Virus genome (UHGV): UHGV-0120089
DNA length: 14,833 nucleotides
DNA from: a virus
Strand: one strand, 5' to 3'
Part shown: one piece after another, positions 6,086-7,755 of the stretch
Layout: every line of letters begins with the position of its first letter
How positions within the stretch are numbered: the first letter of the stretch is position 1
Notes under the pieces: generated by a model
The model's database searches: none
Told to the model about the DNA's origin: nothing
What the model saw: the letters and a program-made list of their open reading frames with translations, nothing else
Made by a program: the position numbers and the translations under genes

Positions 6086-6218
6086 TTTTTGGGACTCCTG
6101 GCTGATTAAGTATGTCGATAAGGCGTTTCCATCCGTCACGTAATTTACGGGTGATTCGTTCAAGTAAAGATTCGGAAGGGCAGCCAGCAACAGGCCACCC
6201 TGCAATGGCATATTGCAT
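6054..6218 (-). CDS. cIII: Lambda CIII (54 aa; FtsH/HflB inhibitor protecting CII)
   Basis: Hand translation from ATG at 6218: [54 protein letters not shown], stop at 6054-6056; matches lambda CIII from memory. Below the ORF-track cutoff. Confidence 0.85.
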   Translation of the reverse strand: MQYAIAGWPVAGCPSESLLERITRKLRDGWKRLIDILNQPGVPKNGSNTYGYPD

Positions 6219-6290
6219 GGTGTGCTCCTTATTTATACATAACGAAAAACGCCTCGAGTGAAGCGTTATTGGTATGCGGTAACGCCGCGC

Positions 6291-6658
6291 TCAGGCGGCT
6301 TTGATAGTCATATCATCTGAATCAAATATTCCTGATGTATCGATATCGGTAATTCTTATTCCTTCGCTACCATCCATTGGAGGCCATCCTTCCTGACCAT
6401 TTCCATCATTCCAGTCGAACTCACACACAACACCATATGCATTTAAGTCGCTTGAAATTGCTATAAGCAGAGCATGTTGCGCCAGCATGATTAATACAGC
6501 ATTTAATACAGAGCCGTGTTTATTGAGTCGGTATTCAGAGTCTGACCAGAAATTATTAATCTGGTGAAGTTTTTCCTCTGTCATTACGTCATGGTCAATT
6601 TCAATTTCTATTGATGCTTTCCAGTCGTATCAATGATGTATTTTTTGATGTTTGACAT
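6291..6658 (-). pseudogene. ea10: ea10-like gene disrupted by a 1-nt frameshift near codon 11; the downstream 97-codon ORF (6291-6584) remains intact
   Basis: ATG at 6658 opens a 16-codon ORF (MSNIKKYIIDTTGKHQ*). The frame of the 97-aa ORF is open for 15 further codons upstream (YDWKASIEIEIDHDV) up to a TGA. Restoring one T at GATACGAC (about 6625-6632) joins them into 122 codons, the size I recall for lambda ea10. The total span is 368 nt, i.e. 369 minus 1. Confidence 0.6.
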
Positions 6659-6675
6659 CTATTCATATCCTCATA

Positions 6676-6704
6676 GATAAAAAATCGCCCTCACATTGGA
6701 GGGC
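6676..6704 (-). terminator. Rho-independent terminator on the minus strand (tL-like)
   Basis: Minus-strand reading GCCCTC-CAATGT-GAGGGC followed by GATTTTTTAT; sits between the N/sieB region and ea10. Confidence 0.55.
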
Positions 6705-6766
6705 AAAGAAGATTTCCAATAATCAGAACAAGTCGGCTCCTGTTTAGTTACGAGCGACATTGCTCC

Positions 6767-6794
6767 GTGTATTCACTCGTTGGAATGAATACAC
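6767..6794. repeat. Perfect 9-bp inverted repeat GTGTATTCA-N10-TGAATACAC
   Basis: Seen directly; located in the 260-bp gap upstream of the sieB-like gene. Confidence 0.45.
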
Positions 6795-6854
6795 AGTGCA
6801 GTGTTTATTCGTATGCCTGTCTTTTAACCACATCAGGCTCGGTGGTTCTCGTGT

Positions 6855-6904
6855 ACCCCTACAGCGAGAAATCGGATAAACTCTATTCACCCCTACAGAG
6901 AGAA
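6855..6904. repeat. Two 16-bp direct repeats ACCCCTACAG(C/A)GAGAA spaced 34 bp apart, just upstream of the sieB-like start
   Basis: 6855-6870 and 6889-6904, one mismatch; the second copy ends 16 bp before the ATG at 6921. Confidence 0.45.
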
Positions 6905-6920
6905 TGATGGAGATTCACCG

Positions 6921-7460
6921 ATGAGTAACTGGTGGCAGGAACTATTACGTTTCTTCCTGCGTGGTCTTACGCTACAACAGTTAATTCATATGCTTATTAT
7001 TTTAATTGCCTTGATAATAATCACCCCAGCATCAATTAAAGAGTGGGTAGATATAAGGAACCCCGAAATACTTCCAGATCACTGGATGTATTACGCAATG
7101 CTTTTGTGTATCAGTTATGTTCTGAACAGGGGGATGGAGTTTATATTTCTGGCATCTTCAGACAGATATAAAAAATATCTCAGTAAGAGAGATGAGGCTA
7201 AAGTAATTGTGGAGACTGAGCGCCTATTCAATTCTCTGAGTATTCAGGAAAAAGAGGTTTTAGCATTTGCTGTTATGGCAAATAACAAAATCGTACTTAA
7301 GCACGGCGATCCGGTCGCTTTATCTCTTATGAGAAAAGGCCTTCTCCATCGCTCAGGTGTGACTTACAGCGCGTCAGGTAAAGAGAAATTTGTTATACCT
7401 GACGTCTGGTTCCATGAGTGTTATATGCGCTTTGCTGGTAAAGCTGATGAGCTAATTTAG
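6921..7460 (+). CDS. sieB: SieB-family superinfection exclusion protein (membrane-anchored)
   Basis: 179 aa with a long N-terminal hydrophobic segment (LIHMLIILIALIIITPA); encoded opposite to the pL operon between the N gene and ea10, the position I recall for sieB in lambda and P22. Family assigned from position and architecture, not from alignment. Confidence 0.7.
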   Translation: MSNWWQELLRFFLRGLTLQQLIHMLIILIALIIITPASIKEWVDIRNPEILPDHWMYYAMLLCISYVLNRGMEFIFLASSDRYKKYLSKRDEAKVIVETERLFNSLSIQEKEVLAFAVMANNKIVLKHGDPVALSLMRKGLLHRSGVTYSASGKEKFVIPDVWFHECYMRFAGKADELI

Positions 7461-7482
7461 TTCCTCGACGGCGGGGGGATCG

Positions 7483-7755
7483 TCACCTCGCTGTCAGTTG
7501 TTTTGATTTCCGGTAGCCTGCCGCGTAAATGGCTACGTTTGGCAGGCAAATACTTCCACTGCATTCATCTGCCTTCTTGCAGCAAAGGCTTCCTAGCGAT
7601 GCTGCTTTGTCTGCTCTGACGCAACCAGAGAGCTTTAGCGCAATTTTTCGCGCCAGTCGCTGTTCTTGCATTGCCTGCTCACGTTGAGCCTGTCTGCGTG
7701 CTCTGCGGCGATTTCTGGTGTTATCGTCAGCCAGATATGTAATGACTACTGCCAT
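7483..7755 (-). CDS. N: N-type transcription antiterminator, P22 gp24-like
   Basis: 90 aa with an N-terminal arginine-rich motif (NTRNRRRARRQAQREQ). The C-terminal end VAIYAAGYRKSKQLTAR resembles P22 N (GVALYAAGHRKSKQITAR, from memory). First gene downstream of pL/nutL. Confidence 0.85.
   Translation of the reverse strand: MAVVITYLADDNTRNRRRARRQAQREQAMQEQRLARKIALKLSGCVRADKAASLGSLCCKKADECSGSICLPNVAIYAAGYRKSKQLTAR

What the first reader, a model, noticed from the sequence alone, without database searches (positions are those of the whole stretch)
6767..6920. Structured non-coding region upstream of sieB: perfect inverted repeat plus paired 16-bp direct repeats
The 260-bp gap between the minus-strand terminator and the sieB-like start contains GTGTATTCA-N10-TGAATACAC and two ACCCCTACAG(C/A)GAGAA repeats 34 bp apart, ending at the sieB RBS region. 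This gene is transcribed against pL transcription, so it needs its own promoter and probably its own control; the repeats look like binding sites for a regulator, or RNA structure. Lambda has ral in this interval, which is absent here.
Basis: seen in the sequence. Interest (0 to 1): 0.4.

Follow-up and report, generated by a model that had tools for sequence, protein, structure and literature searches.

The report
Known sieB promoter and antisense-RNA region
The repeats upstream of this prophage's sieB gene are real, but they lie in the already characterised sieB promoter and sas antisense-RNA region of phages P22 and lambda, and the inverted repeat belongs to a separate conserved hairpin of the phage's leftward early operon.

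Summary
Both repeats are real and exceed chance. They belong to two separate things.

**Direct repeats (6855-6870 and 6889-6904).** They lie in an ~85-bp block, 6815-6899, that is almost identical in lambda, P22 and VT1-Sakai. In P22 this block carries the annotated sieB promoter and the mapped sieB RNA start. Transferred by alignment, copy 1 covers the weak -35 region, TAAACT at 6877-6882 is the -10, and copy 2 begins at the predicted start, A6889. A P22 small-RNA study recovered a 127-nt leftward RNA, which it named as the published sas antisense RNA. That RNA spans both copies.

**Inverted repeat (6767-6794, extendable to 6757-6804).** It sits in an invariant block found in 387 phage records, including phages without sieB. 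It lies about 50 nt before terminator tL2A in the leftward pL operon, so it is not sieB-specific.

**ral** is indeed absent.

**New angle.** The same cassette precedes many unrelated prophage genes, in a one-copy and a two-copy form. In the two-copy form the copies co-vary across at least five motif types. Copy 1 forms the loop and one arm of a hairpin that folds better on the leftward strand. I infer an IS10-like design in which the antisense hairpin loop matches the mRNA 5' end.

Verdict: already known, with modest added interest.

The parts
6675..6706 (-). Intrinsic terminator of the leftward (pL) operon. It is the equivalent of tL2A and lies just upstream of the ea10 start.
   Evidence: One search finds an 8-bp stem with 5 G-C pairs followed by TTTTTT. 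The homologous HK620 site is annotated 'terminator tL2A'.
6757..6804 (-). It is part of an invariant non-coding block (~6707-6810) of the pL operon, about 50 nt before tL2A. It is not specific to sieB.
   Evidence: Searches give -29.2 and -29.8 kcal/mol, z = -7.0 and -6.1. One search finds 387 phage records, 318 of them at 95% identity or more. One search shows it identical in lambda, HK97, HK620 and VT1-Sakai. No run of U follows it on the minus strand.
6811..6813 (.). Junction at which the 339 bp of lambda that carry ral and orf28 (lambda 34057-34395) are absent.
   Evidence: BLASTN coordinates and lambda annotation. The same ral-less junction is seen in VT1-Sakai and HK620.
6815..6845 (.). 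Conserved 'module' GCCTGTCTTTTAACCACATCAGGCTCGGTGG. It is the 3' part of the P22 sas-like RNA. In one-copy cassettes it occupies the -35 and spacer position of the promoter. Its function is unresolved.
   Evidence: It is also present in SieB loci that were found by protein search, in Yersinia and Arsenophonus. Variants are rare. One compensatory change, CCGC with GCGG, was seen.
6846..6870 (-). Hairpin TTCTCGTGTA-CCCC-TACAGCGAGAA. Direct-repeat copy 1 (6855-6870) forms its loop plus one arm.
   Evidence: One search gives -9.9 (minus) and -9.1 (plus) kcal/mol. One search finds 5 pairs changed on both sides and still paired. Across the family the hairpin is more stable on the minus strand. The Yersinia variant pairs fully only on the minus strand, by my reading of the sequence.
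6852..6882 (+). sieB promoter: weak -35 TGTACC at 6852-6857 and -10 TAAACT at 6877-6882.
   Evidence: The 31 nt are identical to the P22 feature 'sieB promoter', 29690-29720. A consensus promoter scan does not detect it.
6889..6904 (+). Direct-repeat copy 2. Its first base, A6889, is the predicted sieB transcription start, so copy 2 forms the first 16 nt of the mRNA.
   Evidence: The P22 'sieB RNA start site' 29727 is the A of ACCCCTACAG.
6889..6920 (+). Predicted 32-nt sieB 5' leader, with ribosome-binding site GGAG at 6909-6912.
   Evidence: Read from the sequence. The leader is not more structured than shuffled sequence (z = 0.27).
6921..7460 (+). sieB (179 aa). The in-frame internal esc start is at 6990, Met24, which aligns with the P22 esc start codon.
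   Evidence: Pfam PF14163. M24 is invariant in alignment A5. P22 esc is annotated at 29830.
6815..6925 (-). Homologue of the P22 sas antisense RNA. The 5' end is placed by homology at 6925. The 3' end is uncertain, because the window diverges from P22 to the left of 6814. Transcripts could instead run on to tL2A near 6680.
   Evidence: The 127-nt P22 RNA reported in PMC13397905 maps to P22 29636-29762 on the minus strand.

Best explanation
**What the region is.**
- 6815-6925 is the control region of the sieB/esc superinfection-exclusion gene, as described for P22 and lambda.
- On the plus strand, a weak promoter (-10 TAAACT, 6877-6882) starts the sieB mRNA at A6889. That base is the first base of repeat copy 2.
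- On the minus strand, the same DNA is part of a leftward antisense RNA, sas. This RNA covers the sieB ribosome-binding site but not the internal esc start at 6990. It therefore shuts off SieB while Esc, the inhibitor of SieB, continues to be made. This lets a phage that carries the module grow lytically.

**Why the sequence is repeated (inferred).**
- Copy 1 is the loop plus one arm of a hairpin in the antisense RNA.
- Copy 2 keeps the 5' end of the mRNA complementary to that loop and arm.
- This is the geometry known from IS10 RNA-OUT and RNA-IN.
- The arrangement probably arose by a 33-34-bp tandem duplication of a one-copy cassette. In that one-copy form the mRNA starts opposite the hairpin loop.

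**The inverted repeat.**
- It is a separate element: a stable hairpin in the leftward pL transcript, in an invariant block just before terminator tL2A.
- Its role is most likely RNA processing or 3'-end stabilisation. That role is inferred and untested.

**Shown and inferred.**
- Shown: sequence identity to the annotated P22 promoter and RNA start, and to the region that gives the P22 small RNA. Also shown: family-wide co-variation of the two copies and compensatory changes in the hairpin.
- Inferred: expression in this prophage, the loop-to-5'-end pairing, and the role of the inverted repeat.
For: **Identity with the P22/lambda locus.**
- 6815-6899 is almost identical in lambda, P22 and VT1-Sakai, while both flanks are mosaic.
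- P22 is annotated with the sieB promoter at 29690-29720, the RNA start at 29727, sieB at 29758 and esc at 29830. The promoter 31-mer is identical in the window, and the RNA start is the A of ACCCC.
- The P22 sas RNA sequence maps onto both repeats, the hairpin and the module. Secondary sources describe the sas, SieB and Esc switch.
- The ORF is SieB by Pfam, and the esc Met is conserved.

**Family survey.**
- 31 one-copy cassettes all have a TA(T/C)NCT -10 with TG upstream and no repeat.
- About 35 two-copy cassettes all lack A-11 at that position. They have a repeat of period 32-35 nt (nearly all 33-34) and a good -10 about 3-8 nt (mostly 5-7) before copy 2.
- Copy 1 matches its own copy 2 at 11.07 of 12 positions, against 5.66 of 12 when pairs are permuted (maximum 7.13 in 5000 permutations), across at least 5 motif types.
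- The same layout is present in SieB loci of Yersinia and Arsenophonus that were found by protein search.

**Hairpin.**
- 5 pairs have changes on both sides with pairing kept.
- It is more stable on the minus strand. In two-copy cassettes the mean difference is -2.36 kcal/mol (15 versus 3). In one-copy cassettes it is -1.33 kcal/mol (21 versus 2).
- The mRNA leader is unstructured.

**Inverted repeat.**
Against: - I could not read the two primary papers (Ranade and Poteete 1993). The published ends and promoter of sas therefore come only from secondary sources, and these disagree on length: 105 nt and 127 nt.
- No consensus promoter for sas was found upstream of the RNA-seq 5' end, in P22 or in the window.
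- The whole sas homologue is not more stable than shuffled sequence (z = -0.53).
- In the two-copy form the antisense RNA is already perfectly complementary to the leader. A second matching site is therefore not obviously needed.
- By my inspection of the sequences, mismatches between the copies are G-U compatible about as often as not.
- The surveyed cassettes were collected with a fixed DNA pattern and are related to one another. Counts are therefore not independent events.
- Expression in this prophage is untested.
Confidence: 0.72

Rival explanations
1. The direct repeat is only a relic of the 33-34-bp tandem duplication that created the present sieB promoter from a one-copy cassette. The repeat as such has no present function. 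Copy 1 is kept because it is the -35 region and a hairpin arm. Copy 2 is kept because it is the start of the mRNA.
For: - There is a strict split between one-copy and two-copy cassettes. The old -10 is always dead in two-copy cassettes, and the period is fixed.
- By my inspection of the sequence, similarity continues beyond the repeat in P22. GAGAAATCG-GATAAAC after copy 1 resembles GAGAATCGCCGATGAAC at the sieB start. This suggests that the new -10 derives from a duplicated start-codon region.
Against: - All two-copy cassettes share the same kind of lesion, GGTGGT-TC in place of GGTGGTATC, which suggests a single origin.
- Yet the motif has since diverged into at least 5 types, with copy 2 tracking copy 1 each time. 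A relic under separate constraints would drift apart.
Confidence: 0.25
2. The two copies are DNA binding sites for a regulator protein. A protein bound at the -35 region and at +1 would repress or activate the sieB promoter. The copies would then co-vary because the protein differs between phage or host lineages.
For: - Two matching sites lie about three helical turns apart, at -35 and at +1.
- The two copies co-vary.
- The neighbouring module is highly sequence-constrained and contains two interleaved inverted repeats, which could be a protein site.
Against: - The motif is identical in lambda, P22 and VT1-Sakai, whose records annotate different repressors and N proteins.
- There are no further copies in the 14.8-kb window.
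- The genes downstream of the cassette are unrelated proteins, so none of them is a candidate autoregulator.
- In several lineages the hairpin around copy 1 pairs only as minus-strand RNA, through G-U pairs. A DNA palindrome would not show this.
Confidence: 0.1
3. The inverted repeat, and with it the whole gap, is a terminator or insulator that shields sieB from neighbouring transcription.
For: - The hairpin is very stable on both strands.
- On the plus strand it is followed by a T-rich stretch, GTGTTTATTCGTAT.
- It lies between two convergently and divergently transcribed units.
Against: - The terminator scan does not report it. No run of U follows it on the minus strand, and a canonical terminator, tL2A, lies about 50 nt further on.
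- The block is equally conserved in HK97, whose annotated stretch here has no plus-strand gene. In HK022 the block is present but cut by IS903.
- No plus-strand gene upstream would need terminating.
Confidence: 0.1

Closest known systems
The sieB / esc / sas module of Salmonella phage P22, and the homologous lambda sieB region (Ranade and Poteete 1993)
   Same: - The 31-nt promoter is identical, and the RNA start base is the same.
- The block that gives the sas RNA is the same.
- The SieB protein family is the same, and the internal Esc start is conserved.
- The position is the same: between the N-type antiterminator gene and the early-left genes, opposite to pL.
   Different: - SieB here is only 49% identical to P22 SieB, and it diverges in its C-terminal half.
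- ral and orf28 are missing. The antisense region therefore abuts the conserved hairpin and tL2A block directly.
- The 32-nt leader after copy 2 differs, and it contains a 6-codon upstream ORF.
IS10 (Tn10) RNA-OUT and RNA-IN antisense control.
   Same: - The antisense RNA carries a stem-loop.
- The 5' end of the target mRNA is complementary to the loop and to the 5' side of that stem.
- Pairing would cover the ribosome-binding site.
- In one-copy cassettes the predicted mRNA start lies opposite the loop.
   Different: - There is no sequence relationship.
- Overlapping convergent promoters were not demonstrated.
- In the two-copy form the match between loop and 5' end is provided by a direct repeat, not by true overlap.
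The lambda tL2 terminator cluster of the pL operon, as annotated in phage HK620
   Same: The terminator at 6675-6706 is homologous to the HK620 feature labelled tL2A. The inverted repeat lies in the same invariant block, just upstream in the direction of pL transcription.
   Different: The inverted repeat itself is not annotated in any record examined. It also lacks the U-run of an intrinsic terminator.
Other phage antisense RNAs: lambda/P22 oop, and P22 sar
   Same: They are short antisense RNAs that control a phage gene at the level of translation or mRNA stability. They were detected together with sas in the same P22 small-RNA data set.
   Different: oop and sar end in canonical terminators. 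The sas region has none near its reported 3' end. No Rfam family matches the sas region.

Membership tests
P22/lambda sieB-esc-sas module | The downstream gene encodes a SieB-family protein. | tested here: met
   Pfam PF14163, E = 1.5e-19, for 6921-7460. It is 49% identical to P22 SieB.
P22/lambda sieB-esc-sas module | An in-frame internal start gives Esc. | tested here: met
   Met24 (ATG at 6990) is invariant in alignment A5 and aligns with the P22 esc start at 29830. Translation from this start was not tested.
P22/lambda sieB-esc-sas module | The sieB promoter and RNA start are as mapped in P22. | tested here: met
   The 31-nt promoter feature is identical. The RNA start A aligns with 6889. 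This is homology only, with no expression data for this prophage.
P22/lambda sieB-esc-sas module | The gene lies between the N-type antiterminator gene and the early-left genes, and is transcribed against pL. | tested here: met
   N_peptide at 7483-7755 (minus), Ea10/DUF2528 at 6291-6584 (minus), and the cIII thermoregulator RNA at 6173-6231 (minus).
P22/lambda sieB-esc-sas module | A leftward antisense RNA (sas) covers the sieB ribosome-binding site but not the esc start. | not testable with these tools
   The reported P22 RNA maps to 29636-29762. The window is nearly identical over 6815-6899. Expression cannot be measured here.
P22/lambda sieB-esc-sas module | sas has its own promoter. | tested here: inconclusive
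   There is no consensus promoter upstream of the reported 5' end. Promoter-like sites near the esc start fall in AT-rich codons. The primary paper was not available.
IS10 RNA-OUT/RNA-IN type antisense control | The antisense RNA carries a conserved stem-loop. | tested here: met
   Compensatory changes are seen in 5 pairs. Many different stems occur across cassettes. The minus strand is favoured.
IS10 RNA-OUT/RNA-IN type antisense control | The 5' end of the target mRNA is complementary to the loop and to the 5' side of the stem. | tested here: met
   mRNA positions +1 to +16 (6889-6904) match copy 1 (6855-6870) at 15 of 16. Copy 1 is the loop plus arm. The two copies co-vary. This is complementarity only.
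IS10 RNA-OUT/RNA-IN type antisense control | Pairing starts at the loop and controls translation. | not testable with these tools
   This needs pairing kinetics and reporter assays.
   There are no other copies in the window. The motif is identical in lambda, P22 and VT1-Sakai, whose records annotate different repressors.
Intrinsic terminator (for the inverted repeat) | A G+C-rich stem is followed by a run of U. | tested here: not met
   The scan does not list it. The stem is A+T-rich, and no U-run follows it on the minus strand.

The most novel reading that the evidence does not exclude
The sieB upstream region is one member of a widespread, portable control cassette for prophage accessory or defence genes that sit against the pL operon.

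- The cassette consists of a sequence-constrained 31-bp module, a hairpin that functions in the leftward RNA, and a promoter whose mRNA starts opposite the hairpin loop.
- It occurs in a one-copy and a two-copy form.
- In the two-copy form a co-evolving direct repeat preserves the match between the antisense loop and the mRNA 5' end.
- Any phage that transcribes the cassette leftward would then silence such genes, including those of a resident prophage with the same motif type. The motif types would act as specificity classes.
Probability: 0.35. Interest if true: 0.55.

Novelty: already known. Interest (0 to 1): 0.3.

Why it matters
For this window the finding is housekeeping. It places the sieB promoter, the predicted RNA start (6889), the esc start (6990) and the sas antisense region. 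It also shows that the inverted repeat belongs to the pL operon and not to sieB.

The comparative result could matter more. The same cassette precedes many unrelated prophage genes, in two forms, and its repeat co-varies. If the repeat sets the specificity of an antisense switch, it would explain how phages escape the exclusion genes of related prophages. It would also give a simple sequence marker for prophage-expressed accessory genes in the early-left region.

Tried and rejected
- **Rfam.** At gathering thresholds only the cIII thermoregulator was found. A permissive search of 6650-7050 gave only chance-level hits. sas has no Rfam model.
- **Consensus promoter scan.** No site was found in 6500-7600. 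The promoter call therefore rests on homology.
- **Search for a sas promoter.** Nothing convincing lies upstream of the RNA-seq 5' end. Sites near esc are confounded by AT-rich codons.
- **Primary papers.** They are not held under DOI, PubMed id or PMC id.
- **Module as an RNA helix or pseudoknot** (CCAC with GTGG, and GCCTG with CAGGC). There is one compensatory event, CCGC with GCGG, in L236 and L239. All other changes are single and uncompensated. Variants of the CAGGC arm are very rare. This is unproven.
- **Link to the EHEC anti-sRNAs AgvB and AsxR.** Rejected, because those lie at the PR' moron site.
- **ORFs 6767-6907 (plus) and 6744-6890 (minus).** Rejected as genes, because lambda has the ral segment inserted within them.
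- **Strand test on the inverted repeat.** Both strands fold equally well, and the block has no variation to test.
- **G-U compatibility of mismatches between the copies.** The picture is mixed and carries no signal (my inspection).
- **Protein-based search for distant SieB loci.** It returned only 4 loci.

Full report
**1. Observation**

The window is the early-left region of a lambdoid prophage.
- Genes on the minus strand include a truncated ea10 (DUF2528), cIII with its thermoregulator RNA, and an N-type antiterminator gene at 7483-7755.
- A SieB-family gene lies on the plus strand at 6921-7460.

- The perfect 9-bp inverted repeat is at 6767-6775 and 6786-6794. It extends to 22-nt arms at 6757-6804.
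- The 16-nt direct repeats are at 6855-6870 and 6889-6904, matching 15 of 16.
- Neither is expected by chance. None of 1000 shuffles gave such a direct repeat, and 7 of 1000 gave a perfect 9-bp inverted repeat.
- The extended hairpin has z = -7.0 on the minus strand and -6.1 on the plus strand.
- The 16-mer occurs nowhere else in the window.
- Relative to lambda, 339 bp holding ral and orf28 are missing between 6810 and 6814.

**2. The direct repeats lie in the known sieB promoter and sas region**

An ~85-bp block, 6815-6899, is almost identical in lambda, P22 and VT1-Sakai, whereas both flanks are mosaic.

The P22 record annotates four features here:
- a sieB promoter at 29690-29720;
- the sieB RNA start at 29727;
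- sieB at 29758;
- esc at 29830.

The promoter 31-mer, TGTACC-N19-TAAACT, is identical in the window. The start base is the A of ACCCCTACAG. In window coordinates:
- the weak -35 is at 6852-6857, inside copy 1;
- the -10 is at 6877-6882;
- the predicted start is A6889, the first base of copy 2;
- the leader is 32 nt, with GGAG at 6909-6912.

A consensus scan does not detect this promoter, so the call rests on homology to the P22 annotation.

The internal esc start is conserved at 6990.

A 2026 small-RNA study of P22 infection recovered a 127-nt RNA that it calls sas. I mapped it to P22 29636-29762 on the minus strand. It begins 5 nt inside sieB. It then runs through the ribosome-binding site, copy 2, the -10, copy 1 and the conserved block.

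[quoted passage not shown] I could not read the primary papers. One review gives the length as 105 nt rather than 127 nt. No Rfam family covers the region.

**3. The inverted repeat is a different element**

The segment 6712-6812 is found in 387 phage records, 318 of them at 95% identity or more.
- It is identical in lambda, HK97, HK620 and VT1-Sakai.
- HK97 has no plus-strand gene annotated there. In HK022 the hairpin is cut by IS903.
- In the direction of pL transcription, it lies about 50 nt before the intrinsic terminator at 6675-6706. The homologous HK620 site is annotated tL2A.
- The hairpin folds equally well on both strands and lacks a U-run. The block does not vary, so covariation cannot be tested.

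I take it to be a processing or stabilising hairpin of the pL transcript. This is an inference. Because ral is absent in this prophage, leftward sas-type transcripts that are not ended earlier would run through the hairpin to tL2A.

**4. Why the sequence is repeated: family evidence**

The left part of the conserved block is a 31-bp 'module' at 6815-6845. A pattern taken from it hit at least 120 viral contigs. Downstream genes are diverse, and the distance from module to start codon is bimodal.

*One-copy cassettes (35-41 nt; 31 distinct sequences).*
- All have TA(T/C)NCT directly after GGTGG, with TG at -15/-14, which makes an extended -10.
- They have a single hairpin whose 3' arm abuts or contains the ribosome-binding site.
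- They have no repeat.

*Two-copy cassettes (66-75 nt; about 35 distinct sequences).*
- All lack A-11 at that position.
- They carry a direct repeat of period 32-35 nt, nearly all 33-34.
- They have a good -10 (TAAACT, TATAAT, TAAAAT or TATATT) about 3-8 nt, mostly 5-7, before copy 2.

The repeat motif differs between lineages: CCCCTACAG, CCCCAACAAC, TTCCACAGTCAA, CCCCCACAA and CCCCAATGCAA. Within each genome, however, the two copies agree at 11.07 of 12 positions. Permuted pairs agree at 5.66 of 12.

SieB loci found by protein search, not by the DNA pattern, show the same layout in Yersinia and Arsenophonus.

The hairpin around copy 1 has compensatory changes. It is more stable as minus-strand RNA in both forms. 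In several lineages, including the Yersinia locus, it pairs fully only on the minus strand, through G-U pairs.

Copy 1 equals the loop plus the 5' arm of this minus-strand hairpin. Copy 2 equals the first 16 nt of the mRNA, which is otherwise unstructured.

The simplest reading has three steps.
- In one-copy cassettes the mRNA begins opposite the loop of an antisense hairpin, as in IS10 RNA-IN and RNA-OUT.
- A 33-34-bp duplication then moved the promoter downstream.
- Selection has since kept copy 2 matched to the loop.

This is an inference. The repeat could instead be a relic of the duplication, or a pair of protein sites. Against the protein idea, the motif is identical in lambda, P22 and VT1-Sakai, whose records annotate different repressors, and it has no other copies in the window.

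**5. Limits**

- The cassette set was gathered with a fixed pattern, and its members are related.
- The conservation of the module is partly by construction. Tests for helices within it were inconclusive.
- No promoter for sas could be identified.
- Nothing here measures expression.

**6. Verdict**

There is an own promoter, and RNA structure is involved. The two repeat types belong to two separate, previously described or conserved elements. No regulator protein is indicated.
- The feature itself is already known.
- The co-varying repeat and the two cassette forms are the only part that may be new.

Noticed in passing
window ~6629 (ea10, minus strand; ORF 6291-6584): ea10 has a 1-nt deletion relative to lambda and VT1-Sakai (ATTGATTACGAC becomes ATTGA-TACGAC). 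The lambda-type start at 6658 is therefore out of frame, and only a 97-aa ORF remains. This is either a pseudogene or a sequencing error.
   Followed up: yes
window 6815-6845; loci L011-L130 (IMG/VR), L136 (Rac-SA53): The 31-bp module precedes many unrelated small plus-strand genes set against the early-left operon. It comes in a one-copy and a two-copy form, and the live -10 positions of the two forms are mutually exclusive. The Rac prophage carries the one-copy form.
   Followed up: partly
window 6815-6845; L236, L239, L381-L391: The module holds two interleaved inverted repeats, GCCTG with CAGGC and CCAC with GTGG. On the minus strand these could form an H-type pseudoknot with an A-rich 8-nt loop. 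One compensatory change (CCGC with GCGG) was seen. All other variants are rare single changes, so the structure is unproven.
   Followed up: partly
L117, L105, L066, L024, L034 (IMG/VR): In another class of contigs the module sits directly downstream of what I read as a pL-like promoter and operator-like repeats, next to a cI-like repressor gene. No accessory gene lies in between. Leftward of it comes an ORF-poor stretch of several hundred nt and then a conserved 123-aa gene (MSNDRMTVVPDF...). No Rfam family matched in the three of these loci that were searched (L117, L024, L034).
   Followed up: partly
window 6904-6924: A 6-codon upstream ORF (ATG ATG GAG ATT CAC CGA TGA) ends in an ATGA overlap with the sieB start codon. 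It is absent from P22, VT1-Sakai and lambda, and it has no evident ribosome-binding site.
   Followed up: no
window 7128-7482: The second half of sieB has no DNA match to VT1-Sakai or lambda, although both flanks do match. The protein is 179 aa, against 192-193 aa in P22 and VT1-Sakai. This points to a mosaic junction inside the gene.
   Followed up: no
window 7292-7305 (minus strand): A terminator-like hairpin followed by ATTTTGTTAT lies inside sieB on the pL strand. HK620 annotates tL1 inside its equivalent gene. This one may be a tL1-type site that stops pL transcripts lacking antitermination before they reach the sieB 5' end.
   Followed up: no
L134 (HK022) 978 onward: In HK022 an IS903 copy is inserted into the 3' arm of the conserved hairpin. 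The hairpin is therefore dispensable for that phage.
   Followed up: no
window 6560-7000: Parts of this region occur in 2245 of 5426 complete E. coli genomes. No complete genome shows this exact arrangement: the best matches are 98.2% identical with ral present, or 92.6% identical as one piece.
   Followed up: no
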